NCBI GenBank assembly: GCA_032718475.1
Contig: JAUCBJ010002721.1
Span: 9,935 to 73,934 of the forward strand
Origin: Nemertoderma westbladi
Taxonomy: Eukaryota > Animalia > Xenacoelomorpha
DNA length: 64,000 nucleotides
Reading direction: 5' to 3'
Position 1 is the first letter of the stretch, and each line of letters starts with the position of its first letter. A program made the translations under genes and the position numbers. This document shows positions 1-51,060 of this stretch, piece by piece. The notes under the pieces are model-generated. The model was not told the origin of the DNA, made no database searches, and saw only the letters and a program-made list of their open reading frames with translations.

Positions 1-1
1 C

Positions 2-613
2 TGCCCCGCAATGTCCTGTGTTCTCTATTAGTCCCAACCCGTCCGGTGCTGTCATAGCCATGTAGACCGTCTGCGTATCCAGAAGGTTGGGGGTGTCCGG
101 ACCGATGATTCTCTCCGCGTCGTCGCGAATCGCCGATCCCACTTTCGTCGTCGACTTCTCTCTCACTAGTGCTTGCACCGCCTTCGGTAGCCGGTTTAAC
201 TTCGGCCCGTCCTTCTTTTCATACGTTCCTAGATCGAATAGGAATATGTCCCCATTTGGCGCGGCCAAATGTAGGAGTATGGTTCTGGCTGATGCCGCTG
301 ATCCTCTCCTCGAACCCTCCTCGTCTTCCACGGTCCCCTCATCGTTCAGGACCATATACCCTTCTCTGCTGACGGACTCTACGAATCTCTTCCAATCCTT
401 CTTCGGTGGATCCCTTGCGTACTTCAGAATCCCGAACTTCGTTTCGTCTCCTTTTATCACGTAGTGGAAATGCTCGAAGATCGCGTTGTCCAGCGACGGC
501 GTCCCATAGGTCCCGACCAGCCGCTGTTCGTGCACCTCCCTGAAATGGTCCTGTAGCGCTCGCGCTGGGTGACCCCTCTCTAACCGTTCCAAGTTTGCTT
601 GCCATCTCGAACT
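2..613 (-). CDS. Extra ORF downstream of pol: DEDDy (WRN/EXD1/MUT-7-like) 3'-5' exonuclease domain, partial (runs off the window)
   Basis: Manual translation of a stop-free minus frame (upstream TAA at 614-616): ...EGYMVLNDEGT...RTILLHLAAPNGDIFLFDL...RLPKAVQALVREKSTTKVGSAIRDDAERI...NLLDTQTVY. This matches the WRN-exo pattern VGFDTEW...VALLQLAT..CLLFQL...LPPSLKQLLEDPSILKVGVGIKGDA...VVDL. Confidence 0.7.
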
Positions 614-1019
614 TTACCCGATCGCTCACCCGTTGGGTGGTGCCTTACCAAGGCGCAGTAGGATGAGTGATAGGTTAAGGTGGTTTATCTCAGTTCGATG
701 GCCTATCTCCCTCTGAATTACTAAGTTAATTAGCCTATTTACACTGTTTTATTTCTGTAGCTACCAAACTGTGCCTAAATTGCGAATTTTGTCAGTTACT
801 TTTATTATCTTCCAGAATTTTCTTTTCTATTGTTACCGTAATTTGTTAATTTTTCAGCCCTATTCTTATTTTAATTTTAATATTTTAAACTATTGCCTAT
901 GGATTATTCTATTTCATAATCCACATTCTGGCCTACTCTGTGGGCTTGTGCAGTACAACAGTATGCGTCGCGCGGCCTACACGATTTATCCAGCTGTACT
1001 CATATGCCCCCCTCTCGCT

Positions 1020-1792
1020 ACTAACTACTAACTAATATCTGTACTATATATATATCCCTCTACCTCTTACTCTTACTAACCGGTACTACATACCCTCTTA
1101 CTAACTTCTAACTCTCTCTAACTAACTAACTAATCGGTACTGCGTACCCTCTTACTAACCTCTAACTCCACTAACTAACTAACGGTACTATGTACCCTCT
1201 TACTAACCTCTAACTCTACTAACTAACTAACGGTACTATGTACCCTCTTACTAACCTCTAACTCTACTAACTATCTAACGGTACTATGTACCCTCTTACT
1301 AAACTCCAACTCTCTCCGACTAATTAACGGTACTATGTACCCTCTTACTAAACTCTAACTCTCTCCAACTAACTAACGGTACTATGTACCCTCTTACTAA
1401 ACTCTAACTCTCTCCAACTAACTAACGGTACTGTGTACCCTCTTACTAACTAACTTCTGCCTACTGACGGTACTACGTACCTTCTTACTAACTAACTTCT
1501 GCCTACTGACGGTACTACGTACCTTCTTACTAACTAACTTCTGCCTACTGATGGTACTACGTACCTTCTTACTAACTAACTTCTGCCTACTGACGGTACT
1601 ACATACCTTCTTACTAACTAACTTCTGCCTACTGACGGTACTACGTACCTTCTTACTAACTAACTTCTGCCTACTGACGGTACTACGTACCTTCTTACTA
1701 ACTAACTTCTGCCTACTGACGGTACTACGTACCTTCTTACTAACTAACTTCTGCCTACTGACGGTACTACGTACCTTCTTACTAACTAACTT
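1020..1792. repeat. Tandem repeats between integrase and the extra ORF: about 8 near-perfect 42-bp units (1440-1792) grading into degenerate ~45-bp units
   Basis: Unit CTAACTAACTTCTGCCTACTGACGGTACTACGTACCTTCTTA; the spurious ORF 1551-1877 shows the 14-aa period. Confidence 0.95.
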
Positions 1793-1889
1793 TTTTTATT
1801 TTTATTGTGTGGGAAGGGCATCTCACCCTCAATCCCACCCCCCTCAGTCCAAAACTTGGACGACTAAACTCCACTAAAATTATACAAGA

Positions 1890-3689
1890 TCAAGGTGCCC
1901 CCTCTAGTAGACAGCATTTTCCTACAGCCCTCCTGTAGGTCTTTCTGTCTTTCGCACCTATCTTTCCACCTATTCGCACTTCTACCGATCGGACTCTTCT
2001 GTCCTCATCGGAGTAGGTGCCCACAACTCTCGCCAACCGCCATTGGTTGTTGATGATAGTATCATCCGTGATGATCACGAGATCACCCTCCTTTAGCTCT
2101 CTGTTCGTGTTCCTCCACTTACTTCTTCTGTGTAGTGTGGGCAGATATTCCTCGACCCACCTCCTCCAGTATTCTGCGCTTATTGCCTTAGTGACTTTCC
2201 AACTCTGGTGGGAGTGTATGTCGTCTGGGTCTACACCCCGCATGTCGATTGTCGCCGGCCTCTCCATTAGAAAGTGACTGGGCGTCAGCACGTCTAATGA
2301 CTCAGGGTCATCATTCTCTGGATATAGCGGTCTGCTATTAATGATACCCTCACACTTTGCCAGTACTGTCCTTAGTACGTCCTCTGTAACCATGTGGGTG
2401 TTCATCAGCTTCGTCATCAGACGTTTCGAACTACCCACTAATCTCTCGACGCATCCTAGCGTATGCGGAGCATACGGCGTCCTCCTCTCCCACTTTACTT
2501 GTCGCCTTCTCATGGCCGCCCTGACTTCCTCCCCTTCCAGGATGTCCAAGGCCTCTGCCATCTCGTTCTCCGCCCCCACAAAGTTGGTCCCGCTGTCAGA
2601 ATACAGCACTGCGATTGTCCCACCTTTGCGGTCTCTTAATCTTTCTAAAGCATTGATGAATGCTGATGCGGTTGCATCGTGGGCGAGTTCTATTCCTACC
2701 GCCCGTGTGTTGTTGCATACGAAGATGATACCGTAGCGTTTCTCCGTGTGTCGCATCACCTTAATCTTTATCGGCCCGAACATATCCACACCGCAATGCG
2801 TAAATGGCGGGTCGTGCTGTCTTACTCTACTGGCCGGTAGTGGTGCCATCTCCTGTATGGCCCATTCCTTCTTCGCTCGTCGGCAGCTCTGGCACTGCCC
2901 CACTACCGCCTTTACCTTCTTCCTCAGCTGTTTGACCCAAAAGGTCCTTCTTATCTCCGTGAGGGTTCGGTTGGTGCCCCCGTGCAATATCGATTTGTGG
3001 GAGTCCCAGATAATCTGGTGGACTATCGGCGATCCTGTGGGAATGATGATGGGCTTCGGTGGTACGACGATACTGTTGTTGTATCCCACCCTAGAGTTCA
3101 TTACTAGGATCCCGTCGTCATTAAGTTGTGGTGACAGCGTGATCAGTTCGCTGTCCCGCCGGAGATGCTGTTGCTTACCGACGCGTTCCACCTCGTCGCC
3201 GTAGTTCTTCCTCTGCTCGTAGCGGATGACTGCCTTGGCCGCTCCTTCCAGGTCTATTGTCGTTCTAGTCTTCACGTCTTTACCAACTCCCCTGAGGAAA
3301 TTCCCGAAGGCTCTCCAGTATGCCACTAACTTCTTGGTCTTGTACCAACTAGAACTGTAGCTAAGGAGTTTATCCGTCAGGTTATCGCACGGTTCTCCTG
3401 GTTTTGGTTGCACGTCCCTTATCTCCCTCACCATCTGGGAGTATATCTCCTCTCCCTCTGAGTCTCCCTCTTCTCCTTCTGACACTACTTCTCCTGAGCC
3501 CGGGTCCACCTTTCTCATCGGCGGCCAGGCCTCCCTATCGCTCAGAAACTGTGGCCTGTGTTGCCACAATACTTCCTTCTTCAAGAAAGTGTGGCGTACC
3601 ACGCCCCTCGATAACAAGTCCGCTGGGTTCTTGTCCGTTGGGCAGTAGTGCCACCTTTCCAGTTCTGTGGTCGCCCTTATTTCGTTCAC
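1890..3689 (-). CDS. Bel/Pao pol C-terminal part: end of RNase H, integrase (HHCC zinc finger, DDE core, C-terminal domain)
   Basis: NPADLLSRG; H..ILHGG...CQSC; GVDMFGP, YSDSGTNF, GCVERLV; W.RW..EYLPTL..RSKW; W.LARVV. Same frame as the RT ORF, separated only by one TAA at 3711-3713. Confidence 0.95.
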   Translation of the reverse strand: MNEIRATTELERWHYCPTDKNPADLLSRGVVRHTFLKKEVLWQHRPQFLSDREAWPPMRKVDPGSGEVVSEGEEGDSEGEEIYSQMVREIRDVQPKPGEPCDNLTDKLLSYSSSWYKTKKLVAYWRAFGNFLRGVGKDVKTRTTIDLEGAAKAVIRYEQRKNYGDEVERVGKQQHLRRDSELITLSPQLNDDGILVMNSRVGYNNSIVVPPKPIIIPTGSPIVHQIIWDSHKSILHGGTNRTLTEIRRTFWVKQLRKKVKAVVGQCQSCRRAKKEWAIQEMAPLPASRVRQHDPPFTHCGVDMFGPIKIKVMRHTEKRYGIIFVCNNTRAVGIELAHDATASAFINALERLRDRKGGTIAVLYSDSGTNFVGAENEMAEALDILEGEEVRAAMRRRQVKWERRTPYAPHTLGCVERLVGSSKRLMTKLMNTHMVTEDVLRTVLAKCEGIINSRPLYPENDDPESLDVLTPSHFLMERPATIDMRGVDPDDIHSHQSWKVTKAISAEYWRRWVEEYLPTLHRRSKWRNTNRELKEGDLVIITDDTIINNQWRLARVVGTYSDEDRRVRSVEVRIGGKIGAKDRKTYRRAVGKCCLLEGAP

Positions 3690-3710
3690 TCTATTCGCGA
3701 CGAATATAGG

Positions 3711-5180
3711 TTATCTCGTCCTTTCGTTGTGTAGCCAACCGAGCACTACCATGGAATCCGTCCAGTAATGTGTTTCCACTATGTTTGGAATAGCGTCCAC
3801 TAAGTAGGCTGTGGCCCTAACTCCTAATCTCGCAGCTGTCAACTCGAGTTTCGGAACTGAAGCTGAGTCTGGTGGCGTCGACTTCGCTTTACTGAATGCG
3901 AGTCTGGGCTTGTGAGCCCCCTCTCGTTGTACTAAATAGAGTGCCGCTCCATATGCCTCTAATGATGCATCGGAGAACATATGTAGATCCAGATTCGTCA
4001 TGTCCCTATCCGGTAAATATACACGCGGCATGCTGTAAGTTCCCATCTGTTCTAAACTCTCTGTCCACTTGTTCCACTGCTTACTAATCTCTTCTGGGAC
4101 CTCTGCGTCCCACTCGTCCTTTAGTTTGTATACTCTCTTGAGTATCTGTTTCCCCGTGACTAGTAATGGGGATGCTAGGCCTAGGGGATCGTATATCCTC
4201 GCTATATATGATACATAGCCCCTCTTTGTGTGGATACCTGCTCCCTCCTGACTCAGTTGGTATTTTAACTCGTCTGTCTCTCTGTTCCCCACGATTCCCA
4301 GTGCCTTCTGTTGAGACTCTATCCTCTTGTTCGCCATGTCCTGCCCCTTGGCTGTTGTGGGATTATCCATGGTCGATCCTGGTCTCTCGTCTTTTATTGC
4401 CTCGATAAATTCCTTCGAACTGGATTGGAATTTGGTTAGGTTGAAGCCGGATCCTCTAAGGATGTCGCGAACCTTGCGCCCTGTGTCCAGTAGCTCCTTA
4501 ACCGTATTTCCAGACTCCATCCCGTCGTCTACGTAGAAACCGCGTCGAATCATATCGACGGCTTTGGCTCTGAACTTATCTTCCTTCCCTGCTACCGTAT
4601 CTCTTACGGCCATAGTCGTTGTAAACGAAGATGACTTGGCTCCCATATTCTGTACTACCATCTTATACATTGGTATGGTCGACAGTTCCTCATCGCCGTC
4701 GTACCATAGGAAGCGTTGGCTGTCGCTATCCTCTCCCGTTACACGGACTTGGTTGAACATGCCTTCGATGTCGCAGGTGAAAGCGTGTTTACCATTCCTG
4801 AATCTGCGTAGGACCTCGACCCCTGAGTTGTAGATGTTGGGACCCTCCAGCAGATAATCGTTTAGACATTTCCCGTTGGTCTTGGCTGATGCGTCAACTA
4901 CCATCTGCAGTTTACCTTTCTTCGGGTCTATAGCCACGTGGAGTGGCAGGTAATAGGTCCTGTCCGTGTTTGGCTCGTCGACCGGTAACTCCACGGCCCA
5001 TCCTTTCTCGACATGCTTTCTAATTGTCTTGTGGATGTACTCATTCTTCTCGGGGCTCCGTTTTAACGTCTGCTTTAACTTGCGAAGCCTCGTAAGTACC
5101 ATCCCTTTGTTGTCGGGTAACGGTAGCTTTGGTAGCTTCCATACCATCCCTATGGTATACCGCCCCTCATCGCATGTCAT
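3711..5180 (-). CDS. Bel/Pao reverse transcriptase and RNase H (Pao peptidase A17 region)
   Basis: YYLPLH, VVDAS, CLND.LLEGP, DIEGMFNQV, FYVDD, IYDPLGL, FSDAS..AYG, KLEL.AA, WTDS. Confidence 0.95.
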   Translation of the reverse strand: MTCDEGRYTIGMVWKLPKLPLPDNKGMVLTRLRKLKQTLKRSPEKNEYIHKTIRKHVEKGWAVELPVDEPNTDRTYYLPLHVAIDPKKGKLQMVVDASAKTNGKCLNDYLLEGPNIYNSGVEVLRRFRNGKHAFTCDIEGMFNQVRVTGEDSDSQRFLWYDGDEELSTIPMYKMVVQNMGAKSSSFTTTMAVRDTVAGKEDKFRAKAVDMIRRGFYVDDGMESGNTVKELLDTGRKVRDILRGSGFNLTKFQSSSKEFIEAIKDERPGSTMDNPTTAKGQDMANKRIESQQKALGIVGNRETDELKYQLSQEGAGIHTKRGYVSYIARIYDPLGLASPLLVTGKQILKRVYKLKDEWDAEVPEEISKQWNKWTESLEQMGTYSMPRVYLPDRDMTNLDLHMFSDASLEAYGAALYLVQREGAHKPRLAFSKAKSTPPDSASVPKLELTAARLGVRATAYLVDAIPNIVETHYWTDSMVVLGWLHNERTR

Positions 5181-8178
5181 CGATTCCTTTCACACTTTGT
5201 AAAGCCTGCTTATCTTCTACCGAGGTTCCGACCCCGGTCTCCTTTAATCCCTCAAAGTCCTGCCTGAGCAGTCTCCTGAGCTGCTCCTCTGCTCCCTCAT
5301 CCTCCATCTCTCGCATAGTTCCCGCGAACATGCATCCTGATGTCTCCGACATCCTAAATGGTATCTTACTCTTGATTGGGCCACTCAGTGTCCACCCGAA
5401 TGGTGTCAATATCGCCACCGGGTCACACTGCCTGTCTTCGCCGAAGACCGTTTGCATTCTCTCGTGGGCCGTTGGGCAGTCCATTCCTACTATGATGGAT
5501 ACCTTCCTAACGTCCACCTCTGGGATTGAGAAGTCGATACTGTCCAGGAATCTGTATTGTTCGACCTCGATGTTGGTTGGCCGCCTGGCGTTAATATTTA
5601 TCGACTCTATCACCTGGATGGGGTCGATGGTCGCCCCATAATCGCATCCCGGTGCTACCGCTGCTATCGCGCACCGTCCGGTTCTCATCTCCAGAACCTC
5701 ATCTTTGCTGGAGATGGTTGTTACCGCCATTCTACTTGGCCTCGTTCTCAATCCTATCTCTTCGGCCACCCAATCCTCAACTAAGGTGAAGGCTGCACCA
5801 CTGTCGACCAGCATCAGTGTGGTTACTGATCGGTTGCCTTCGCCGATTATCCTTACTGGTACTACCCCTAATAGTACCGTCCCTCTCTTCTTTGCTACTA
5901 CGGTGCTTGTTGCCATTGTTTGTCCTTTACTCTGGCCGAACTTAATTGGCGTTTCTTTGCATTGTCTAGCTCTGTGTCCACTCATCACGCATCGCGAGCA
6001 GATGTCATTTCTCGCCGCGTATTCTACCTGATCTTCCCTGGGTAGCGCCTGCCAGTACCTGCAGTTCATGGTCTGATGAAGCGCATTTGAATGTAGCTGA
6101 CATTTGCTCTTTGGATCGTAGCCATCCTTATACAGTGCATTGCGTATCGCAGATGCATTTGTACCAAAGTCCTTACTCTTATTGTTTGAATTCTGCCTAC
6201 TGGGCGTACTGGGGGTATGTTTATTTGTGTTGTTATTTTTCCCCTGTCCGCTCCATGATGTCGTCTTACCCTCGGCTACCTGTGGACTTGCAGTCCCCTG
6301 CGTCGCTGCGTATGGCAGTGATTGCCTGAGCTTTGGTAATGCGTTTGATGTGTTATGTTCTGGTTTCGGCCTGTGGTAATCGGTCTTTGATCCCTTTCCC
6401 AGGCTATCCTCGCTGTAGACTGGGTCCGTTATAAGTTCAGCTTCATAGTTTAAGAAGCTTGACATCTCTTCTAAACCCGGTTCCGCACCCTTCCTATCTC
6501 GAGTGGAGAAAGCGATTTTCCTCCACTTATTGCGCAGCCACATCGGAAGTGCCTGGGCTATCGTTGTGATGTTGTTGGACGCGTTGAGTTCGTATGGCGC
6601 ATCCAATGTCTTTAGCACGATTAGCGCCTTCTCGACTTTGTTAGCGAATGTCTTTATGCTAACGGGGTTATCCTGTAGGCCACCCGATGTTATACCTCTC
6701 AGGGTCTGCCGGATGATCTTGGCCGGGTGCCCGTATTCCCTGTCTAACGCCCGCCATGCCGTCGTGAAGCCACCCTCGATACCCTGGTATTGCCTCACGA
6801 TGTCGTATGCTGGGCCCCCTGTATATACTTGCAGATACTTTAGGCACTCCGCCTGCGTCAAATTTTTTGTTAATATTTCGTTACTATACATGCGCCGAAA
6901 CTGTAGGTATTCTTCCGGCCTACTCCCATCGAATTTGAATGGTTCCACGGGTGGTAACTCGATCCTTGTTTTTAGTGCATCGATTAACGTGGCCATCCCC
7001 ACCGCTTGCGCTTCCAATGGGTTCGATGGGTGCTGCATAGGTTCTCCCGTTGGGTGCGGTCCGTTCGTCCTGTTTGCCGCTTTCCTCTGACTTGGATATA
7101 TCATAGGGGGTAGCGGCCCCCTCCATATTTCTGTGTCGCATGATCTATTCTCGTCCAAGGGGTTCGATGTTCTTACTCCTACTGGGGTATATTGTTGATA
7201 TTGCGATGGGGGAATGTCACCCTGTCCCCCCCCCCCCACTGGTATATTTGGTACTGGGGTTGATGTTAATATATTGGAGCCCATGCATCTATCCGCAATA
7301 ATCCCCCCTTCCCCTGGGTATATGTTATGTCCTTGCATGCTGTAGTCATACTGCTGTGCTGGTACCGGTATAGGCCTATCTACTTCTGGCCTCCTTGCCG
7401 GTATATACTCCGCGACTTCCGGGTTTAATCCCGCTGTTCGCGCTATCCTATCGCCTATATTATCTCTCTCAGCATAGCCTATGGTATGTGCAGTAAGGCC
7501 TACAGTATGTCCTGCAGTCTGTATGTGTCGCTCGGGATCGAAGTTTATCCTTCTCGAATAATCCTCCCCGCGGCCACCGCATTCTCGATCGGTAGGTATA
7601 TCCCGTCGGGAAGCTTCTCTTCGACCCCCTCTACTGCTCTCGCTCTCGTGCCGGTACATCCCGTACCCCTCTCTCTGCGCGCAATACGCCTCGTCAGGTC
7701 GCGCTCCTCCGGGGCGACGGCAATCTCCCGAAGTTCGACCCTGCTGACTCTCCGTCTCCACCTCTACTACCGACGGCTCGCTATCCGTCCTCGCTCTCCT
7801 GTCGTTCGCGGCGACACTTCTTCTACTCTCTTCCCTTCTTCTCTCTGTAGTGCAGTATTCCCGCTCGTGAGATCTCTCGTCGACCTCCCGGTTAAACTCC
7901 ACTGTTCTTCTTCCCTCTTCTGATCGGGCTCGACGCTTCGTCCGCCCTCTCGCGACGTCAACCTGTCTCTCTCTGCTCGATTGCACGCCGCTGGGGATAC
8001 TCGCAATCCCCCTATCACTCTCCGTCGCCGGATGTTGCGGTTTACCTGTCTCGGCCCGCGCATTATCCGTCGACGCCTGTGGGGCACTCTCTGCCCCCCC
8101 CCCCCCCCCCCTTTCGCCGCTAACTCGCTGTTGTGGGGCTCCTGTAGCCCCCCCCCCCCCCCCCCCCCCACTCGCCAC
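5167..8178 (-). CDS. Bel/Pao gag (DUF1759 capsid-like core, Cys/His knuckles) and aspartic protease
   Basis: PFKFDGS.PEEYLQF..., LDREYGHP; CQLH...H...C and CSRCVMSGHRARQC; protease LVDSGA; TPFGW. A 1-nt frameshift to the RT frame occurs near 5190. Confidence 0.92.
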   Translation of the reverse strand: MASGGGGGGGATGAPQQRVSGERGGGGGAESAPQASTDNARAETGKPQHPATESDRGIASIPSGVQSSRERQVDVARGRTKRRARSEEGRRTVEFNREVDERSHEREYCTTERRREESRRSVAANDRRARTDSEPSVVEVETESQQGRTSGDCRRPGGARPDEAYCAQREGYGMYRHESESSRGGRREASRRDIPTDRECGGRGEDYSRRINFDPERHIQTAGHTVGLTAHTIGYAERDNIGDRIARTAGLNPEVAEYIPARRPEVDRPIPVPAQQYDYSMQGHNIYPGEGGIIADRCMGSNILTSTPVPNIPVGGGGQGDIPPSQYQQYTPVGVRTSNPLDENRSCDTEIWRGPLPPMIYPSQRKAANRTNGPHPTGEPMQHPSNPLEAQAVGMATLIDALKTRIELPPVEPFKFDGSRPEEYLQFRRMYSNEILTKNLTQAECLKYLQVYTGGPAYDIVRQYQGIEGGFTTAWRALDREYGHPAKIIRQTLRGITSGGLQDNPVSIKTFANKVEKALIVLKTLDAPYELNASNNITTIAQALPMWLRNKWRKIAFSTRDRKGAEPGLEEMSSFLNYEAELITDPVYSEDSLGKGSKTDYHRPKPEHNTSNALPKLRQSLPYAATQGTASPQVAEGKTTSWSGQGKNNNTNKHTPSTPSRQNSNNKSKDFGTNASAIRNALYKDGYDPKSKCQLHSNALHQTMNCRYWQALPREDQVEYAARNDICSRCVMSGHRARQCKETPIKFGQSKGQTMATSTVVAKKRGTVLLGVVPVRIIGEGNRSVTTLMLVDSGAAFTLVEDWVAEEIGLRTRPSRMAVTTISSKDEVLEMRTGRCAIAAVAPGCDYGATIDPIQVIESININARRPTNIEVEQYRFLDSIDFSIPEVDVRKVSIIVGMDCPTAHERMQTVFGEDRQCDPVAILTPFGWTLSGPIKSKIPFRMSETSGCMFAGTMREMEDEGAEEQLRRLLRQDFEGLKETGVGTSVEDKQALQSVKGIDDMR

Positions 8179-10338
8179 ATCTAACTTCGCTATCTCTCAC
8201 CCCGCTACTATATCCCTCTCTAGTCGACACGTCAACCCTACTGCGGCTGGGTCTATTCACCCCCGCCTCTCCCTCTGCTATTGTGTGGCCTACCAGGCCC
8301 TCTACTTTCTGCCTACTAACTACGTGGCCTACCAGGCCCTCGCTGGGTTTACCCAACCCAACCACTCCCTGCCTACCAACCACGTGGCCTACCAGGCCCT
8401 CGCTGGGTTTACCCAACCCAACCACTCCCTGCCTACTAACTACGTGGCCTACCAGGCCCTCTCCGGGTTGGCTCAACCCCGCCACTTCCAGCCCACTAAC
8501 TAAGTGGCCTACCAGGCCCTCTTCGGGTTGGCTCAACCCCGCAACTTTCTGCCTACTAGCTGTACGGCCTACCAGGCCCTCGTCTGCCGGGTTATACACG
8601 TCCGACACGTTCACGTTAATAGCACCACTAATATTGTCATCGGTTAGATCAATTAAATCCTCTAACTCGATTAAGTTACCTTGTGCGCCCAAATTAGAAA
8701 CGGAATTATTTTGCTCGTTCGAAATAAGATTATTTGAATTATTTTGTAAATTCAGATTTATATTTAAATTATTTGGATTATTTTGTAAATTCGGACCTAG
8801 ATTTAAATTATTTGAATTATTCCCTACATTAATATTAGAATTACTAGGATTTAAATTACTACTGTCGGGCAAAATATTATTTCCTGCAATGAAAGTTTGA
8901 TTAGAATTATCTAGTACGGTACTATTAATATCAACGTTATCTACTGTATTATTATTATTACCCCCCCCCCCCCGCCCGTACGGTTACACCAGTCTCGGGT
9001 CTGTCGTGCGGTCCCTGTAAGTGGGGTATTAATAAATGTTTCTTCGACCCTTGGCTCCTCGAAACATCTCGAGCCAGCGTCACTCTCTGATAGCCCCAGC
9101 TGGGCCATTTTTAGTCTGCGCTTTTGTTTGGTTTGGTACTGAATGAGCCCCCCTAGGCGGGCATGTAAACCATCCCGCACACGCTTCCCCTCTGCTGCTC
9201 TCTCCCGACTCTCCCGCGCGCTCTGCTCGGCCAAATCCCTCGCTCTCTCAACTCTCTCCATTCGTTTCGCTTCCCTTGCCACCTCACGCTCTTTAAGTTC
9301 TGCCTCGCGCTCTTTTCGTTCAGCCTCGCGCTCTTTGCGTTCACACTCCTCTCTCGCCTCGCGCTCTTCTCGTTCCTTCCTCCCTATTTCCTCACACTCC
9401 CTAAAGCTTCTTGCGGCTTTCTCGGCCCTCTCTCCGGTCTCTCTAGCCAGTTCCATTTCTTTCTCTAATAGCACTCTCCCCTCCTCTAACTGTCTCTCTA
9501 CTTCTCTCTGGTCTTGCGCTATTAGATCGAGATAACACGCCGCATTTATTTCTCTCACCCGTCTTTCTTTTACGGAGGATGTAGCAGACTTATCGGTTGC
9601 GACGGATTCCCTCCGCCTTCCCGTCCTACTAACCCCCCCCCCCCTTTTTTCGGAACCTTTTCCGACCGACGAGACCGAATCCTCGGGGTTAACCTCGGAT
9701 TCGCCCTCCTGCGGTTTCCTCCAACCCACTAATTTTATTCCCCGGGCATCGACTAAGTATGGCCCTACGTACACTACGCTAGGTTCCATACCCCTACATT
9801 CCCATAGTTCGAACAGTTCGGTGGCAACCCCTCTCGCTCTCTCGCTGGCTAGTTCTCCCTGCCCAAAACGTTTTAGATAGTCAAAATGTTCGTTCGACTC
9901 ACCTAGTTTTTTATTTAGGTTTACCTCGTCTATCTGGGCCCCCTCTTTGGCCTCCTTAAGTAGTTTCCGGGTCGCGTTGTAGGCCCGCCGAAGTCGATCG
10001 CTGACCCCGACGTCCTCGTTGCCGACATCTCCTCCATCTCTCCGGGTCCGGCGTCGTGCCGGCGGCCCCACCGTCGCCGTTCCGGTGGGCCGTCCGTCGC
10101 CCTCGGCCTGTGGCTGGCCGGCGACACTGGCATGTCGACCGCCGTCGTGTGTCGACTCGTCTCTCTCTCCAACTCTCCAACTCTCCTCTAGTAGACGGCT
10201 CCCCTCGCGTTGGATCACCGGGTCACCCGTTGGCGATGGGTCCGGTGTCGTGGGCCTGTACCGTCGTGTCACGGCCTCGCGGATCGTTAGATCGCCGTCC
10301 GGGGTCCGCGTCGGTGTCGTCCCTTCTACTCGGCTCAT
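8120..10338 (-). CDS. N-terminal extension of gag (charged coiled-coil, Asn-rich segment, 20-aa repeats); ORFs 8941-10338 and 8120-8872 joined across poly-G frameshifts
   Basis: ATG at 10338 lies just downstream of the LTR. Frame changes coincide with C-runs at about 8961-8972 and 8148-8169 on +; past the first run the alternative frame reads GNNNTVDNVD...ILPDSS straight into the next ORF. Confidence 0.7.
8283..8590. repeat. 60-bp coding tandem repeat (about 5 copies) in the gag extension
   Basis: GTGGCCTACCAGGCCCT recurs every 60 bp; peptide EGLVGHVV.RQ.V.GL..P. Confidence 0.9.
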
Positions 10339-10455
10339 TGTAGCTAGTTACTCTCGTAGCGTAGTCAGGCAGTAGTTGATCTAGTTACTGTGACGGGATC
10401 TGCGGAAGATCCCGGTTTATCCGGGTTTTGGTTCCTAGTCTACGCGTCCCCACCG

Positions 10456-10961
10456 TGTGTGAAAGATGTAAAGAGTTCTAGGTTGTTGATCGGTCGATAT
10501 ATATATAAGCTCGGGATATATGATATAATAGAGATAAAGCACAAAGTTGTAATGTACCGGTATGTGATATGTACTGATGACAGTAGGCGGAGACGGTAAC
10601 TAGAGTTCCGCTACTGTCCTAACTAGCTGACTTACTACAAGTGAATGAATATTGCATGGACCGGTAATATATATTGCACAGTTGGCCATATTGCTCTACC
10701 CAGTCGATGCTTCCCCCCTATTGGCTAATACCCTCGTTGTCGCCCTTTCACCTTCCCTGGTGTGTTTCCCATTGCCCCTGTTGTTCTCTCTCTCTCTCAG
10801 GGGTGTAACCTCTGACCCCTTTGTGCGTACGTCCTCTGGGGTTCCCTTGTCCCCACTTTATTGGGGTGGTACGAGGTTGATATTGGGTATCAACCTCGTG
10901 TTCCCAATATTGGTTAAAGCTCACTTTATGGGGCTGGTTAGCGGAATTGAATACGCTAACA
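10456..10961 (-). repeat. Putative 5' LTR of the left Bel/Pao element
   Basis: Minus strand begins TGTTAGCG at 10961, where an RTE-like fragment is abruptly cut, and ends ..CACA about 115 bp before the gag ATG. No second copy in the window to confirm it. Confidence 0.55.
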
Positions 10962-11175
10962 ACATTGCTTTCGCCGTGAGGACCAGCCGGTGCATAATCT
11001 TGTACTTTGGAAGCCTCATGGAGCGAATAAGCATGGTGGACAGCCCATGACTTTCTTGAGACGCATCTTAAAGGACACTGGCCTTGAAGATGCTGATGAT
11101 CTAGCAAATGTCATGGGTGATAGGGAGTTGTGGCGGTGCAATTTTGTCGATAAGCCGGCACAGCATTCTTAAAAA
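10962..11175 (+). mobile_element. 3' fragment of an RTE-like LINE (interrupted by the Bel/Pao insertion)
   Basis: HCFRREDQPVHNLVLWKPHGANKHGGQPMTFLRRILKDTGL...MGDRELWR resembles RTE-clade ORF2 C-termini; a near-identical copy is at 50870-51060. Confidence 0.7.
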
Positions 11176-11212
11176 TGCAGCTGCAATGCAGCATGCCGAT
11201 CCTAGTAGTAGT

Positions 11213-11690
11213 AGGCAAACATTCCCATCACTGGTAAACATTCCCCAAGGACCACTGGTAAACATTCCCCAAGGACCACTAGCAAACATTCCCCAAGGAC
11301 CACTGGTAAACATTCCCCAAGGACCACTGGCAAACATTCCCCAAGGACCACTAGCAAACATTTCCCAAGGACCACTAGCAAACATTCCCCTAGGACCACT
11401 AGCAAACATTTCCCAAGGACCACTGACAAACATCCCCCAAGCACCACTGGCAAACATTCCCATCACTGGTAAACATTCCCCAAGGACCACTGGTAAACAT
11501 TCCCCAAGGACCACTGGCAAACATTCCCCAAGGACCACTGGCAAACATTTCCCACCACTGGCAAACATTCCCCACCACTGGCAAACATTGCCCAAGGACC
11601 ACTGACAAACATCCCCCAAGCACCACTGGCAAACATTCCCCAAGGACCACTGGCAAACATTCCCCACGCACCACTGGCAAACATTTGCAA
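11213..11690. repeat. 24-bp minisatellite (GGCAAACATTCCCCAAGGACCACT) with 18-bp variants
   Basis: Directly visible, about 20 units. Confidence 0.95.
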
Positions 11691-12014: not shown

Positions 12015-12388
12015 GGGTTTTACGGCCTTTAGTATATTTAAGCACATTGTATGTAGCAATGGCAATATTTGTGAAAAGTGTACGAAAAAGAAAATGTATG
12101 TGACCTCCATTCATGGTTGGCCCAAAGTGTGTAAAAATTGTGTCATTATTATCTCTAATGTCTATTGTCAAACTCTATGTAAATAATTTAGTTTTCAAAA
12201 ATAAAATATTAAATAAAAAGTATTCAAGTTTCGATGAGATCTGAATGAGAATTTTCGATGGTATCAATAAATAGATTTCATTTAAAAGATTACATTTTTC
12301 ATTCCATTTATATATCCTTTACCTCTACAACAACTACACCCTATATTTTGTGGTATTTAATGTCGCCTGCCTTTATACCCTGTTGCAG

Positions 12389-12968
12389 ACTGAAGAAGGA
12401 CGTGTTACCGTTGGTGCAGACTTTGTGTCAGGACATTGACTACGAGGTCCGCGGCTGTATGTGTCTGCTGTTGGATCGATTCTGTAAGGCATTATCAGGG
12501 GACCAGCACACAAACAAGGTGATCCTAGACGAACTCACCGAGCTCGCCGGTGACGAGGAGAGTTCAGTTCGACTCGCGAGCATCGAGACCATCGTCAACA
12601 TGTTGGACGTTCTAGACGACGACGTCTGTGTATCAGTCATCGTTCCCTTGGTAACCACCTTCATAAAGTCTAAGTTGGGGCTTGAGGACTGGACTACCTC
12701 CGAGTTCGCCTTCCATTTCGGACCGCTCTGCCACAAACTCTCCCCCCATCTGGACGACTCGGGTAAGGAGGAGTTCCTCGCTACGTTCCGTCGTCTCGCC
12801 TTGGTGGGCAGCGCCCCCGGCAGTGTAGCCCCCGTACCCGGCGCCCCCCGACTCAACTCAGTCCACAGCCCCCCCATAACCGGTCTCAAACTGCCCCCAA
12901 TTGGCTTCGGCTACAATAGTGAGGATCGCAATTCCCAATGTCGCCGCAATTCGGCGTACAACTTTCCT
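12389..12968 (+). CDS. PPP4R4: PP4 regulatory subunit 4 (HEAT repeats), first exon visible in the window
   Basis: LKKDVLPLVQTLCQDIDYEVRGCMC...DEESSVRLASIETIVNML...RRNSAYNFP vs human IKREILPLVKSLCQDVEYEVRSCMC...VRKNCAYNFP; tgcag acceptor, gtaagt donor. Confidence 0.92.
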
Positions 12969-14329
12969 GTAAGTGTTTTTAGACATTATAACTTCCCCAG
13001 GGGGCCAAACTCACAAAAAGTGGCCAAAAACGTTTCCCACACGATTCGACTTAATTTTAGAAAGACATTTTTTTTAGGAACCTAGTAAAGTTATATATAT
13101 ATTTTTGAAGATAATTTTATGGTCCAACAGATGCACAAAAAATCATACTGCCACTCCGACTTTGAAATATTTTACAGACCTTTTAGTACTAAAAAATGCA
13201 GGTTTATTTTCAATTGTCAAAAAAAGTTCATTGCATTGTGGGGGATGTATTTTGACATCTACTGGGTGTATTTCAACAAGTTATAGCTCATTTTAAAGCT
13301 AAATAATAGAGGAATGCAATGGAATAACTCCCAAATTGTTTTATTGATATCATATTTAAATAAAACAATAGATAATATACCCCTATTTTTGACAATTACT
13401 TGTCCCAAACGGTAACAACTGAATTCACCAATAGGTTTTTATTTGGATTCTATAACCTAAATTCTTATTTGAAAAGAAAATCTTCAAGAAGTGGAATGTT
13501 CCAGATTTTACGAAAAAATACTAAACACAACCGGAGATATGGCTGGTTTTATACGTGCGAGTCGATTATGTCAATTAGGATTGTCCCATGTGTAACACCA
13601 AGTGCACTGCTTTACCATGCTCTAGAATCAGTTCTAACAAACTTGATATGAAGATTCAAATATCAGAAGATAGCCAAGTTCTTGGTCTTTTGCGTGAGTA
13701 ATCATTTGTGGCAACAATTGACTATGGAATAGACTTTAGTTGCTTTTACATTTATGATGTAACAAAAGTGCCTGTAAAAATGTCTGTAACAAAAGCCTGT
13801 AACACAAAAAATCCTTACAAGGCGGGACGTCCCACACGTAACATGTAAATCGAATAATTTTGGGCTACAGAATGGGACATGTCTCACCAGTAACACTTTA
13901 GTAGTGCAGACTTCATAATATTGATAAGACTGTAGGTCATGCACACAGAACAGCAGTATTAACTGTGAATTGGTACTTACCTACCTACAGTAGTACCGGT
14001 AACAGTATCAGTGCTGCCTCTTTATTGCGTTTGATTCGAAGTTATTGGATCTACAGATCTGCGCAGTGCATAGAGTTTACTATTGACTACTAAACAAACT
14101 AATCCTAACCAGAACCAGTTATAAGCACACTGATACAGACACTATGTGACTACGGTATAGAATAGAGACCACATTTCATTACTTATTAGACATCAGCTTG
14201 CCGTTCCGGTATCAAGATACTGATAGTAAATATAAATAGGACTAATAATACTGATCTGTCTTATATGGAATGCGGTCCATCTTAGATCTATCTTCTGCGA
14301 TTGGGAGAGGGAGATTGGGAGCTCCGTGA

Positions 14330-18886: not shown

Positions 18887-19254
18887 GTGAGTTGCAACTC
18901 TAGTTAATATGTTACAATATAGACGTGTATAATTTATCGAAATATGTGTCACTGCATATATAAATCAACCAATTCCGGTCAGAAATTTGCACAAATGTTT
19001 GGTATATTATGTTTTGTCGGTCTGTCCGTCTTTCAGTCACATATCTGTCAACTTATTCATTGATTCTTAACTCTTGGGGGACTGCAGATTTAAATTATTG
19101 GGGTTTTCATTGTCGCTGATTTCATTTCCGATGTTAATTTTCATGTTTGAAGGAATCTAGTCCCTTCGTTTGTCTTTTGGACTTGCTTTCTGTCCGTCTG
19201 TCAAAAATATAATAATAGAGTAAAGTAAAATTAACTTTACTTAACTTTACTCTG

Positions 19255-22208
19255 GCTGAAACCTGGCCGTCTACTAACAGCTGAAACCTGGCCGTCTACT
19301 AACAGCTGAAACCTGGTCGTCTACTAACAGCTGAAACCTGGCCGTCTACTAACAGCTGAAACCTGGCCGTCTACTAACAGCTGAAACCTGGCCGTCTACT
19401 AACAGCTGAAACCTGGCCGTCTACTAAGAGCTGAAACCTGGCCGTCTACTAACAGCTGAAACCTGGCCGTCTACTAACAGCTGAAACCTGGCCGTCTACT
19501 AACAGCTGAAACCTGGCCGTCTACTAACAGCTGAAACCTGGCCGTCTACTAACAGCTGAAACCTGGCCGTCTACTAACAGCTGAAACCTGGCCGTCTACT
19601 AACAGCTGAAACCTGGCCGTCTACTAACAGCTGAAACCTGGCCGTCTACTAACAGCTGAAACCTGGCCGTCTACTAACAGCTGAAACCTGGCCGTCTACT
19701 AACAGCTGAAACCTGGCCGTCTACTAACAGCTGAAACCTGGCCGTCTACTAACAGCTGAAACCTGGCCGTCTACTAACAGCTGAAACCTGGCCGTCTACT
19801 AACAGCTGAAACCTGGCCGTCTACTAACAGCTGAAACCTGGCCGTCTACTAACAGCTGAAACCTGGCCGTCTACTAACAGCTGAAACCTGGCCGTCTACT
19901 AACAGCTGAAACCTGGCCGTCTACTAACAGCTGAAACCTGGCCGTCTACTAACAGCTGAAACCTGGCCGTCTACTAACAGCTGAAACCTGGCCGTCTACT
20001 AACAGCTGAAACCTGGCCGTCTACTAACAGCTGGAACCTGGCCGTCTACTAACAGCTGGAACCTGGCCGTCTACTAACAGCTGAAACCTGGCCGTCTACT
20101 AACAGCTGAAACCTGGCCGTCTACTAACAGCTGAAACCTGGCCGTCTACTAACAGCTGAAACCTGGCCGTCTACTAACAGCTGAAACCTGGCCGTCTACT
20201 AACAGCTGAAACCTGGCCGTCTACTAACAGCTGAAACCTGGCCGTCTACTAACAGCTGAAACCTGGCCGTCTACTAACAGCTGAAACCTGACCGTCTACT
20301 AACAGCTGAAACCTGGCCGTCTACTAACAGCTGAAACCTGACCGTCTACTAACAGCTGAAACCTGACCGTCTACTAGCAGCTGAAACCTGGCCGTCTACT
20401 AACAGCTGAAACCTGGCCGTCTACTAACAGCTGAAACCTGGCCGTCTACTAACAGCTGAAACCTGGCCGTCTACTAACAGCTGAAACCTGGCCGTCTACT
20501 AACAGCTGAAACCTGGCCGTCTACTAACAGCTGAAACCTGGCCGTCTACTAACAGCTGAAACCTGGCCGTCTACTAACAGCTGAAACCTGGCCGTCTACT
20601 AACAGCTGAAACCTGGCCGTCTACTAACAGCTGAAACCTGGCCGTCTACTAACAGCTGAAACCTGGCCGTCTACTAACAGCTGAAACCTGGCCGTCTACT
20701 AACAGCTGAAACCTGGCCGTCTACTAACAGCTGAAACCTGGCCGTCTACTAACAGCTGAAACCTGGCCGTCTACTAACAGCTGAAACCTGGCCGTCTACT
20801 AACAGCTGAAACCTGGCAGTCTACTAACAGCTGAAACCTGGCAGTCTACTAACAGCTGAAACCTGGCCGTCTACTAACAGCTGAAACCTGGCCGTCTACT
20901 AACAGCTGAAACCTGGCCGTCTACTAACAGCTGAAACCTGGCCGTCTACTAACAGCTGAAACCTGGCCGTCTACTAACAGCTGAAACCTGGCCGTCTACT
21001 AACAGCCTGGCCGTCTACTAACAGCTGAAACCTGGCCGTCTACTAACAGCTGAAACCTGGTCGTCTACTAACAGCTGAAACCTGGCCGTCTACTAACAGC
21101 TGAAACCTGGCCGTCTACTAACAGCTGAAACCTGGCCGTCTACTAACAGCTGAAACCTGGCCGTCTACTAACAGCTGAAACCTGGCCGTCTACTAACAGC
21201 TGAAACCTGGCCGTCTACTAACAGCTGAAACCTGTCCGTCTACTAACAGCTGAAACCTGGCCGTCTACTAACAGCTGAAACCTGGCCGTCTACTAACAGC
21301 TGAAACCTGGCCGTCTACTAACGGCTGAAACCTGGCCGTCTACTAACAGCTGAAACCTGGCCGTCTACTAACAGCTGAAACCTGGCCGTCTACTAACAGC
21401 TGAAACCTGGTCGTCTACTAACAGCTGAAACCTGGCCGTCTACTAACAGCTGAAACCTGGCCGTCTACTAACAGCTGAAACCTGGCCGTCTACTAACAGC
21501 TGAAACCTGGCCGTCTACTAACAGCTGAAACCTGGCCGTCTACTAACAGCTGAAACCTGGCCGTCTACTAACAGCTGAAACCTGGCCGTCTACTAACAGC
21601 TGAAACCTGGCCGTCTACTAACAGCTGAAACCTGGCCGTCTACTAACAGCTGAAACCTGGCCGTCTACTAACAGCTGAAACCTGGCCGTCTACTAACAGC
21701 TGAAACCTGGCCGTCTACTAACAGCTGAAACCTGGCCGTCTACTAACAGCTGAAACCTGGCCGTCTACTAACAGCTGAAACCTGGCCGTCTACTAACAGC
21801 TGAAACCTTGCCGTCTACTAACAGCTGAAACCTGGCCGTCTACTAACAGCTGAAACCTGGCCGTCTACTAACAGCTGAAACTTGGCCGTCTACTAACAGC
21901 TGAAACCTGGCCGTCTACTAACAGCTGAAACCTGGCCGTCTACTAACAGCTGAAACCTGGCCGTCTACTAACAGCTGAAACCTGGCCGTCTACTAACAGC
22001 TGAAACCTGGCCGTCTACTAACAGCTGAAACCTGGCCGTCTACTAACAGCTGAAACCTGACCGTCTACTAACAGCTGAAACCTGGCCGTCTACTAACAGC
22101 TGAAACCTGGCCGTCTACTAACAGCTGAAACCTGGCCGTCTACTAACAGCTGAAACCTGGCCGTCTACTAACAGCTGAAACCTGGCCGTCTACTAACAGC
22201 TGAAACCT
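19255..22208. repeat. ~2.95-kb array of a 25-bp unit (about 118 copies)
   Basis: CTGAAACCTGGCCGTCTACTAACAG, highly homogeneous, no spacers. Confidence 0.98.
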
Positions 22209-23629
22209 AAACAGCTTTTTATTTGAATTACCGGTACTACAAATTAATTTATATCTGGCACCCTTTGGTGATAGCGATCTACTACTTTAAGAATGTCGTC
22301 GCGGCGGAAAAGAAACAATAACAGCGATGATCAAAGTATGTCCTTATCTTCTCGTCGTCTCAGCATTGGAGTTGCAGCTGGGAACCACAATATAAACGAG
22401 CCGAAATCTCAACTACACAAACAATCAAAAGAAGAAAACAAAAGGATAAGCGGGAAATCGTCAAATTTGGTCACAGCAACTACTAAATCAGTAGCGGATC
22501 CCACAGCAAATCGTGACGATGGACTAACTGAGATTGAGGTGAGTTGTTCTGGCTCCAATTGCGACGTATCGATGATTTGCATGGTAAAGCTATTGACGGA
22601 TTTCGGTCGCATCGACTTCTACTACGGAAATTGTGTTGGTTGTCGTCTATCTAATTTATCAAAGGAAATGGAAGCCTTGGAACTGCGAGTAGACCACAAT
22701 ATAACAAAACTCCACGGACAAGTAAATGATTACGATTCTCGGTCTAAGATCTTGGAGGTACAGATCATAGATAATAGACGAGCTATGGAGAATGCTTTCA
22801 AAAACCTTAGGGTGGAGATATAAAGTAATATCGAAGAGATACAAAAGAAACACGATGATCTAGACCTAGAACTCGAAGATCTAAAATCCGCTGCCAGTAA
22901 TCACACGACCTGTAGTACATAGGACTACTAACGGTGATACAACAAGTAATGAATCCTGGCCATGGAAAAACGTATCATATTCCCGCAACAAAAAAACCAA
23001 ACAATACAACAAACCTCGCTATACTAACACGGCAACTAAAACACGAAGAATCTGAACAAAATAAACGCAGATCAAACATCGTTATATCCGGTTCCAGTCC
23101 GCAACAAAATGACAAAGATCTTATTATTGACATCGCCTCTACTCTCAATGTCACACTAGAAGAGAACGATATAACCTCTAAACGTGTGGGGAAACTACGA
23201 GAAAACAACTCGCAACCCGTAGTAGTTACACTACCCCCAGAAAAACGGGCTTCACTACTACAGAAAGCTCGTGACTTACGTAAATCACAAAGATATAAAC
23301 ACATATATATATCATTAGATCTCACACCAGAAGAAAGTCGTCTGCAATATGACTTACGACAGGAAAGACGTGCGATGCAATCTAGTCACCCTGATAAACG
23401 CTGGGTCATCTACCGAAACGAAGTGGTTGATTCGACATCTATAAACAATCTAGGAAAAACCAAGAACACACCTGGGCTAACCAACGATCAATCTTTACAT
23501 AGACAACGAACATTCTACAGATCTGACTCATCTTCATTTAGTACCTCCTGTAATATATCCCCAACTACAACAATTCCATCTCAATCACAGGTAATAAATA
23601 TTGGAATATATTATATTCCATTAACCAGA

Positions 23630-24140
23630 CTCACGGCACCCATCGGGTCTCCGGTCCCTGCGTGCAGACCCCTGTCACCCAGCGGGTCTCTGGTCCATGC
23701 GTCCAGACCCACGGCAGCCAGTGGGTCTCCGGTCCCTGCGTCCAGACCCACGCACCCAGCGGGTCTCCGGTCCCTGCGTGCAGACCCACGGCACCCAGCG
23801 GGTCTCCGATCCCTGCGTCCAGACCCAAGGCACCCAGTGGGTCTCCGGTCCCTGCGTCCAGAACCACGGCACCCATCGGGTCTCCGGTCCCTGCATCCAG
23901 ACCCACGGCACTCAGCGGGTCTCCGGTCCCTGCTTCCAGACCCACGGCACCCAGCGGGTCTACAGTCCCTGCGTCCAGACCCACGGCACCCAGTGGGTCT
24001 ACGGTCCCTACATCCAGTCCCGCGGCACCCAGCGGGTCTCCGGTCCCTGCATCCAGACCCACGGCACCCATCGGGTCTCCGATCCTCGCTTCCAGACCCA
24101 AGGCACCCAACGGGTCTCAGATCCCTGCGTCCAGACCCAA
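23630..24140. repeat. 39-bp GC-rich minisatellite inside the LINE
   Basis: CACGGCACCCAGCGGGTCTCCGGTCCCTGCGTCCAGACC, about 13 copies. Confidence 0.92.
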
Positions 24141-50869: not shown

Positions 50870-51060
50870 TATTTCCGCCGTGAGGACCAGCCAGTGCACA
50901 ATCTTGTGCTTTGACAGCCCCGATGGAGAAAATAAGCATGGTGGGCAGCCCATGACTTTCGTGAGACGCCTCCTAAAGGACACTGGCCTTGAAGATGCGA
51001 GTAATCTCGCGAAAGTCATGGGGGTTAGGGAGTTGTCGCGAGCAATTTTTTCGATAATCC
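50870..51060 (+). mobile_element. 3' fragment of an RTE-like LINE
   Basis: Closely similar to 10965-11160. Confidence 0.7.

What the first reader, a model, noticed from the sequence alone, without database searches (positions are those of the whole stretch)
2..613. Bel/Pao retrotransposon apparently carrying an extra WRN/EXD1/MUT-7-like DEDDy 3'-5' exonuclease ORF downstream of integrase
Seen: a stop-free minus frame of about 204 codons, absent from the ORF track because it runs off the window. It is on the same strand as pol, 1.3 kb after the integrase stop, has similar purine-rich composition, and no LTR copy intervenes. It translates to MVLNDEG..TILLHLAAPNGDIFLFDL..LPKAVQALVREKSTTKVGSAIRDDAERI..NLLDTQ. 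Known: this motif order is the DnaQ-like DEDDy domain of WRN, EXD1/EXD2, MUT-7/Nibbler and Egalitarian, and the extra ORFs I know of at this position in Bel/Pao elements are env-like. Inference: the element captured an exonuclease fold, possibly for cDNA/RNA processing, RT proofreading, or interference with piRNA trimming. I do not know a described Bel/Pao family like this.
Basis: partly seen in the sequence, partly recalled or inferred. Interest (0 to 1): 0.88.

Follow-up and report, generated by a model that had tools for sequence, protein, structure and literature searches.

The report
Bel/Pao retrotransposon carries a 3'-exonuclease gene
A highly repeated jumping gene of the Bel/Pao type is followed, where such elements sometimes have an envelope gene, by an extra gene that selection has conserved and that is predicted to encode a 3'-trimming nuclease, likely part of the element and likely used against the host's small-RNA silencing; in the literature searched this cargo was described only for unrelated rotifer elements.

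Summary
The frame at 2-613 (minus strand) is real and coding. It lies 1.28 kb behind the integrase stop of a decayed Bel/Pao element, and no LTR copy intervenes. Pfam, PDB-sequence and large protein searches found no relative. A DEDDy 3'-5' exonuclease fold is supported by ESM Atlas (PF01612, 0.94) and by a home-built DEDDy profile (13.6 bits; best of 1000 shuffles 4.5), with Exo I and Exo II in register. Contigs from public runs cover it about a thousandfold deeper than a host exon, like gag-pol. Among listed differences between copies, 16 of 21 shared ones are synonymous (gag-pol: 15 of 21), so the family keeps this gene under purifying selection. This copy is broken: Asn at the first Exo I position, private to it, and an apparent frame break near 590. 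Exo III, the 3' LTR and the target-site duplication lie beyond the window, and no contig spans pol to ORF3, so linkage is inferred (about 0.85). The function is untested. DEDDy ORF3s are published for rotifer Juno/Vesta elements; I found none for Bel/Pao. New variant of a known kind.

The parts
10456..10961 (-). candidate 5' LTR, TG...CA, 506 nt
   Evidence: sequence; repeated in public runs; no second copy in the window, so both ends are inferred from the junctions
10962..11214 (+). 3' remnant of a very high-copy LINE-like repeat with a (TAG)n tail; the probable insertion target of the LTR element
   Evidence: highest depth; loose ends before 10962 in 82-130 contigs per run and behind 11214 in 156-186; 82% copy at 50873-51090. 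The RTE-like label is recalled; Pfam gave no hit
8941..10347 (-). first frame of the element, charged and coiled-coil-like; probably the N-terminal part of Gag (inferred)
   Evidence: no significant Pfam hit
8120..8983 (-). Asn-rich frame with a 60-nt tandem repeat, between the two gag-side frames
   Evidence: no significant Pfam hit
5167..8196 (-). Gag core and aspartic protease
   Evidence: DUF1759 E 1.4e-10; Asp_protease_2 E 3.2e-5
3711..5189 (-). reverse transcriptase and RNase H of Pao type; separated from gag by a frame break near 5190 and from integrase by a stop near 3711 in this copy
   Evidence: Peptidase_A17 E 1.9e-42; RVT_1 E 0.003; other copies differ from the window at both breaks
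1890..3710 (-). integrase
   Evidence: Integrase_H2C2 E 1.4e-12; DUF5641 E 3.6e-23
1791..1845 (-). G-rich purine tract (1845-1833) and A-rich stretch (1806-1791) just behind the pol stop; PPT-like, but not followed by the LTR
   Evidence: sequence; LTR search negative
1075..1792 (.). tandem array of related units of about 42 nt between pol and ORF3
606..1068 (-). non-coding leader of ORF3
   Evidence: all 12 listed indels between copies fall at 637-978
591..605 (-). probable ORF3 start (ATG at 605, MASKL), out of frame with the exonuclease frame in this copy
   Evidence: frame 339-644; one contig of a diverged copy keeps a start with the same first residues, and other contigs part from the window near 590 (table 7; read by eye)
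2..613 (-). ORF3 main frame; DEDDy-like exonuclease domain from about 430 to the window edge
   Evidence: selection pattern
338..346 (-). Exo I motif, N-D-E in this copy; the Asn codon is private to this copy or its close sub-lineage
   Evidence: alignment columns; every contig laid at 346 differs from the window (33, 30 and 24 contigs)
77..121 (-). Exo II Asp (codon 121-119) and the conserved Asp that follows it (codon 79-77)
   Evidence: invariant and nearly invariant columns D104 and D118 of alignment A2

Best explanation
The frame is a conserved extra gene behind pol, likely the third gene (ORF3) of a high-copy Bel/Pao retrotransposon family, predicted to encode a stand-alone DEDDy 3'-5' exonuclease that would act in trans on RNA, most likely to blunt the host's small-RNA silencing. 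Shown: the frame, its position, its repetition, purifying selection among copies, and the decay of this copy. Inferred: (1) DEDDy fold, about 0.9; (2) it lies inside the element, about 0.85; (3) it is catalytically active in intact copies, about 0.8, with Exo III unseen; (4) it is made from its own spliced or internally started RNA, because 1.3 kb of stop-rich spacer separates it from pol; (5) its target. Not being part of Gag-Pol, it has no built-in route into the particle where reverse transcription occurs. That favours a target in the cell: trimming or destroying piRNA/siRNA precursors made from element RNA.
For: Fold. ESM Atlas: 28 of 30 hits carry PF01612, best 0.94 with 183 of 256 features shared. 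Combined 44-sequence RNase D/WRN-type profile: 13.6 bits, pairwise E 1.8e-6, best of 1000 shuffles 4.5, next of 85 window frames 0.4; hhalign E 1.6e-5. Exo I Glu and Exo II Asp fall in invariant columns. Selection. 26 of the 40 listed sites lie in the frame; 16 are synonymous in it, against 4 and 5 in the other two minus frames. Shared differences 16 of 21 synonymous (neutral expectation 0.32-0.35, p about 1e-4); window-private ones 0 of 5. Gag-pol gives 15 of 21 and 0 of 8. Linkage. Depth at 1-417 is 24,489/11,135/27,184 against 22/16/28 at 12094-12500, within the range of gag-pol bins. All 20 bins of 1-10000 share one purine strand bias, against 10 of 104 bins outside. No LTR and no upstream half of the split LINE in the window. 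The 18 listed loose ends in 1-1100 come from 1-5 contigs each. Precedent: DEDDy ORF3s shared between LTR and Penelope-like elements of rotifers (PMC5408684), which suggests a job independent of LTR replication chemistry.
Against: No Pfam, NCBIfam or PDB-sequence hit and no true homolog in two 5.8-billion-protein searches or the 1.84-billion search. Three profiles were tried: RNase D alone gave 1.4 bits, beaten by 7 of 1000 shuffles; WRN-type alone gave 8.5 bits against a best shuffle of 7.3, with hhalign probability 0.2%. The single-sequence model failed (pLDDT 39). No listed contig bridges pol to ORF3. The loose-end tables are cut (18 of 324 shown), and one search did not list the LTR's own ends either. 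A PPT-like tract sits right behind pol, and the LTR bin has lower depth (2,689-6,821) than internal bins. Variant rows are the tool's best supported (40 of 147), not a random sample. Nothing here bears directly on substrate. PMC5408684 found no clear link between ORF3 and copy number.
Confidence: 0.45

Rival explanations
1. Same gene in the same element, but it works in replication: it trims 3' ends of element RNA, primer or cDNA, or removes mismatches left by reverse transcriptase.
For: DEDDy enzymes include DNA exonucleases (WRN, polymerase proofreading domains), and the WRN-type profile scores higher than the RNase D one (8.5 against 1.4 bits). PMC5408684 names 3'-end processing of element RNA as its first suggestion. 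Selection on the gene is as strong as on gag-pol, as for a core function.
Against: The gene is not fused to Gag-Pol, so packaging needs an extra mechanism (inference). Typical Bel/Pao elements replicate with gag and pol only (PMC3118150, passages).
Confidence: 0.28
2. The exonuclease frame, its leader and the tandem array belong to a separate high-copy repeat (for example a Penelope-like or other element) that sits behind pol only in this copy.
For: No contig bridges pol to ORF3; a PPT-like tract and an A-rich stretch follow the pol stop; no 3' LTR is visible; such ORFs also occur in Athena/Terminon elements (PMC5408684, PMC6431247).
Against: Same strand and unbroken strand bias; depth in the gag-pol range; the same split of shared-synonymous and private-nonsynonymous differences; no many-contig loose end among those listed for 1-1100; no LTR start behind the purine tract.
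Confidence: 0.13
3. An element-borne protein that keeps the DEDD-like shape but binds RNA without cutting, as described for EXD1 and Maelstrom, or a different fold that only resembles DEDDy.
For: Asn at the first Exo I position and His in the usual Gln column in this copy; Exo III unseen; weak profile scores. PMC5408684 notes inactive DEDD derivatives in piRNA biogenesis.
Against: The Exo I departure is private: all 33, 30 and 24 contigs laid at that site differ from the window. The Exo I Glu, the Exo II Asp and the following Asp are in place.
Confidence: 0.12
4. An exon of a single-copy host gene of the EXD2/Mut-7 type next to the element.
For: Host genes of this family exist in animals (recalled).
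Against: About a thousandfold deeper cover than a host exon and hundreds of divergent contigs; no homolog found, which a conserved host gene would have.
Confidence: 0.02

Closest known systems
DEDDy (RNase D-like) ORF3 of the bdelloid rotifer LTR retrotransposons Juno1/2 and Vesta2/5 (Rodriguez, Kenefick, Arkhipova 2017, PMC5408684; parts 1-3 of 5 read, abstract to start of references)
   Same: Stand-alone DEDDy-type exonuclease gene behind pol, without membrane segments; function untested. The second Atlas cluster is mostly from Rotifera, a lead only.
   Different: Those are rotifer-specific lineages with dUTPase, in low copy, with the motif changed to DEED; the paper lists no Bel/Pao clade. 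Here pol is of Pao type, Exo II has Asp, the family is highly repeated, and purifying selection on the exonuclease is measurable.
DEDDy ORFs of Athena/Terminon Penelope-like retroelements (PMC5408684; PMC6431247, passages)
   Same: Exonuclease as accessory cargo of a retroelement.
   Different: Non-LTR, telomere-associated elements without integrase.
Bel/Pao elements with env-like ORF3: Drosophila roo, mosquito elements with Chuviridae-like glycoprotein (PMC13524379 and PMC3118150, passages)
   Same: Same superfamily and same gene slot.
   Different: Their cargo is a membrane fusogen; the visible part of this ORF has no hydrophobic segment (highest 19-residue hydropathy 1.07) and one Cys.
Cellular DEDDy exonucleases WRN, EXD2, Mut-7/Nibbler, EXD1, RNase D, Rrp6 (PF01612)
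   Same: Motif order and spacing through Exo II.
   Different: Only 11-23% identity to the bacterial members aligned; below Pfam detection; the closest subfamily and the donor are not resolved.

Membership tests
Bel/Pao LTR retrotransposons | Pao-type RT/RNase H | tested here: met
   PF05380 E 1.9e-42
Bel/Pao LTR retrotransposons | order gag-protease-RT-RNase H-integrase | tested here: met
   DUF1759, protease, RVT_1/PF05380, Integrase_H2C2, DUF5641 in that order on the minus strand; order as in PMC3118150 (passage)
Bel/Pao LTR retrotransposons | two LTRs with TG...CA ends and a target-site duplication | tested here: inconclusive
   one candidate LTR only; the other end is beyond the window and no genome is held
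Bel/Pao LTR retrotransposons | placement in a named clade by pol phylogeny | not tested
   no relatives recovered
DEDDy 3'-5' exonucleases (PF01612) | score above the curated Pfam cut-off | tested here: not met
   no PF01612 hit at E up to 1 or 10; the domain is cut by the window edge
DEDDy 3'-5' exonucleases (PF01612) | profile similarity above shuffled controls | tested here: met
   13.6 bits against 4.5 for the best of 1000 shuffles with the combined profile; Atlas 0.94; the two single-type profiles were marginal
DEDDy 3'-5' exonucleases (PF01612) | Exo I D-x-E | tested here: inconclusive
   in register, Glu present, first position Asn in this copy; that state is private to this copy
DEDDy 3'-5' exonucleases (PF01612) | Exo II Asp | tested here: met
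   invariant column D104
DEDDy 3'-5' exonucleases (PF01612) | Exo III Y-x-x-x-D | not testable with these tools
   would lie beyond position 1
DEDDy 3'-5' exonucleases (PF01612) | RNase H-like fold | tested here: inconclusive
   single-sequence model failed; with an alignment of known DEDDy proteins pLDDT 78 and DEDDy matches, which is circular
Bdelloid Juno/Vesta DEDDy ORF3 | carried by a Juno or Vesta element with dUTPase | tested here: not met
   Pao-type pol, no dUTPase hit
Bdelloid Juno/Vesta DEDDy ORF3 | motif changed to DEED | tested here: not met
   Exo II is Asp here; DEED as stated in PMC5408684
Bdelloid Juno/Vesta DEDDy ORF3 | same clade in an exonuclease tree | not testable with these tools
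   no rotifer sequences could be fetched; Atlas gives clusters without sequences
env-like ORF3 | transmembrane segment and cysteine pattern | tested here: not met
   none in the 204 visible residues; the C-terminus is unseen

The most novel reading that the evidence does not exclude
A Bel/Pao lineage carries an active, selected DEDDy exonuclease as a suppressor of piRNA/siRNA silencing, drawn from a pool of exonuclease genes exchanged among Bel/Pao, gypsy-like and Penelope-like retroelements; its high copy number makes the open question of what these ORF3s do directly testable.
Probability: 0.3. Interest if true: 0.8.

Novelty: new variant of a known kind. Interest (0 to 1): 0.55.

Why it matters
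Exonuclease cargo in LTR elements has been described from low-copy rotifer families, where its use to the element could not be judged. A highly repeated Bel/Pao family with selection on the gene as strong as on gag-pol would show that the cargo is needed and has reached another LTR superfamily. It would give enough copies for proper selection tests, and a candidate element-encoded counter to small-RNA defence.

Tried and rejected
Protein searches with the frame: none among longer or similar-length proteins. The 20 hits of the 1.84-billion search were multi-stretch matches; the 5 of 20 that I scanned are TPR-repeat proteins, so all were set aside. Pfam, NCBIfam and PDB by sequence: nothing significant. 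Related loci: none in viral contigs or metagenome contigs. Two genome-contig hits were chance: a histidine-kinase-like frame and the antisense of another gene. Plasmids and phages: nothing useful. Pairwise BLASTP to E. coli RNase D (E 0.33, Exo II in register) and to a bacterial WRN-type protein (E 69) was not significant. Single-sequence fold and its search: uninformative. The alignment-guided fold is not counted as independent. Atlas, unnamed clusters only: best 0.89, leads only. No RNA holder was listed, so expression is open. No whole genome is held. Earlier findings: none for this genome, this sequence, or Bel/Pao with an exonuclease. The primer-binding site behind the LTR was not matched to a tRNA; ARAGORN found no tRNA in the window. 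The host was not identified.

Full report
Observation. The minus frame 2-613 is stop-free for 204 codons and runs off the window. Resampled sequences reach that length in 29 of 2000 trials. Its coding strand has 0.614 purines, like the integrase, RT and gag frames (0.612, 0.597, 0.621), and the highest third-position GC of the frames measured, 0.647.

The element. Upstream on the same strand lie Gag (DUF1759), protease, a Pao-type RT/RNase H (PF05380, E 1.9e-42) and integrase with DUF5641, in Bel/Pao order. A candidate 5' LTR spans 10961-10456 with TG...CA ends. It abuts the 3' remnant of a very high-copy LINE-like repeat at 10962-11214; contigs of that repeat go on beyond 10962 with other sequence (82-130 contigs per run), and that continuation is not in the window (0 matches with up to 3 mismatches). 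The simplest reading is that the LTR element inserted into the repeat and ends left of position 1. A 5'-truncated LINE landing at the LTR edge would look the same in these data. This copy is decayed, with a stop near 3711 and a frame break near 5190 at which other copies differ. Behind the pol stop come a G-rich tract, an A-rich stretch, a tandem array at 1075-1792, about 460 nt of leader, and the frame in question. No LTR sequence lies in 1-1890.

Is the frame part of the element? No genome is held, so I laid contigs of four public DNA runs from two studies. Summed depth is 24,489, 11,135 and 27,184 at 1-417 in the three large runs, against 22, 16 and 28 at 12094-12500, which reaches into a host exon; gag-pol bins of run X1 range from about 10,000 to 89,000. 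The tool warns that depth is no copy number, so I use only the contrast. All 30 bins of 1-1100 are covered in three runs, and the 18 of 324 loose ends shown come from 1-5 contigs each, unlike the 156-186 at the LINE's true end. All 20 500-nt bins of 1-10000 have at least 0.564 purines on the minus strand; 10 of 104 bins outside do. Against: no listed contig bridges pol to the frame, the tables are cut, the LTR's own ends were not listed, the LTR bin has lower depth than internal bins, and a PPT-like tract follows pol. I put linkage at about 0.85.

Is it a selected gene? Of 147 differing sites in 1-1100 the tool showed 40; 26 lie in 2-613. Classed one by one, 16 are synonymous in this frame, against 4 and 5 in the other two minus frames. 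Sites where nearly all depth (at least 0.99) differs from the window mark changes private to this copy or its close sub-lineage: 0 of 5 are synonymous. Sites that vary among other copies: 16 of 21 synonymous, against a neutral expectation of 0.32-0.35 (p about 1e-4). The 29 gag-pol rows, leaving out the stop site, give 0 of 8 and 15 of 21. The 12 of 23 indels shown all lie at 637-978, outside the frame; four listed pieces inside it have 12, 9, 2 and 1 gap letters, and one contig skips 179 nt. The rows are tool-selected, so the p values are guides. The pattern says the family keeps this frame under constraint like gag-pol while this copy decays. Synonymous sites extend up to 506. The nearest plausible start, ATG 605, is in another frame; one contig of a diverged copy keeps a start with the same first residues and other contigs part from the window near 590 (read by eye), so this copy appears to be out of frame there.

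Is it a DEDDy exonuclease? Standard searches failed: Pfam, NCBIfam, PDB sequences and large protein sets. ESM Atlas gave PF01612 for 28 of 30 hits, best 0.94 with 183 shared features; shuffled proteins reach 0.9 in 4-10 of 100 cases by the tool's note; the second cluster is mostly from Rotifera. I built three profiles from fetched sequences. RNase D-type (33 of 36 candidates): 1.4 bits, beaten by 7 of 1000 shuffles. WRN-type (11 sequences; the seed matches human WRN at E 1.4e-18): 8.5 bits, best shuffle 7.3. Combined (44): 13.6 bits, pairwise E 1.8e-6, best shuffle 4.5, next of 85 window frames 0.4; hhalign probability 56%, E 1.6e-5. In alignment A2 the Exo I Glu and Exo II Asp are invariant and the following Asp nearly so; the first Exo I position is Asn in the window. 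At that site every laid contig differs from the window (33, 30 and 24 contigs), so the Asn does not describe the family. The single-sequence model failed. A model guided by A2 reached pLDDT 78 and matched RNase D, EXD2, Rrp6, Nibbler, Exd1 and Egalitarian, but the alignment imposed that fold. Exo III is beyond the window.

How it probably works. The gene has its own start and is cut off from pol by stop-rich spacer, so it would need a spliced or internally started RNA; PMC5408684 states that ORF3s are typically separate units expressed from spliced messages. It has no membrane segment in the visible part, so it is not an envelope. Not being in Gag-Pol, it has no built-in route into the particle. 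The same cargo is shared by LTR and Penelope-like elements in rotifers, which replicate differently. These points favour action on RNA in the cell, and I rank interference with small-RNA silencing first (0.45 for the whole chain), end-processing or proofreading in replication second (0.28), a separate repeat third (0.13), a non-cutting binder fourth (0.12). All functional steps are inference; no RNA run was listed.

Comparison with what is known. PMC5408684 (parts 1-3 of 5 read) describes DEDDy ORF3s in rotifer Juno and Vesta elements and in Athena elements, with the motif DEED, low copy numbers and no demonstrated activity. PMC5718144, PMC6431247 and PMC6338049 (passages) repeat this. For Bel/Pao, PMC3118150 and PMC13524379 (passages) mention env-like genes and do not hold the word exonuclease in their main text; the passages of PMC2774666 shown added no such case. 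Nine searches listed no paper on a Bel/Pao element with an exonuclease gene; the library is open-access only, Repbase and Dfam were not searchable, and supplements were not opened, so an existing annotation may have been missed. Unchecked notes from this scan report exonuclease ORF3s in Gypsy elements of other genomes (8 of 23 shown), which makes the theme look recurrent. Verdict: works like the rotifer DEDDy ORF3 but is not a member of those families; new variant of a known kind; interest 0.55.

Noticed in passing
window 60113-64000 (+): A second, different Bel/Pao-like gag region (DUF1759 E 1.2e-5; 27% over 73 residues to the first element's Gag), broken and running off the right edge.
   Followed up: partly
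window 32272-34083 (-): An intronless Asparaginase_2 family gene (E 3.9e-42; taspase-like label recalled) with an in-frame tandem repeat of about 190 codons in its middle.
   Followed up: partly
window 1791-1845 (-): PPT-like purine tract and A-rich stretch directly behind the pol stop, not followed by the LTR; could be a central PPT, a relic of the original 3' end, or a poly(A) signal.
   Followed up: partly
window 8120-8983 (-): Asn-rich low-complexity frame with a 60-nt repeat between two gag-side frames; with them gag-pol would span about 8.4 kb, long for a Bel/Pao element.
   Followed up: no
window 12249-13085 (+): Host HEAT-repeat exon, PPP4R4-like by recall; the region used as the single-copy depth control overlaps it.
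   Followed up: partly
window 47808-48317 (+): Intronless MTP18-family gene (E 7.3e-18).
   Followed up: no
window 19112-22300: Nearly perfect 25-nt tandem array of about 3 kb, next to a decayed LINE-like region at 22275-25304 with RVT_1.
   Followed up: no
window 36580-38111: Inverted repeat arms of 377 nt, 96% complementary, 778 nt apart: a probable MITE or foldback element.
   Followed up: no
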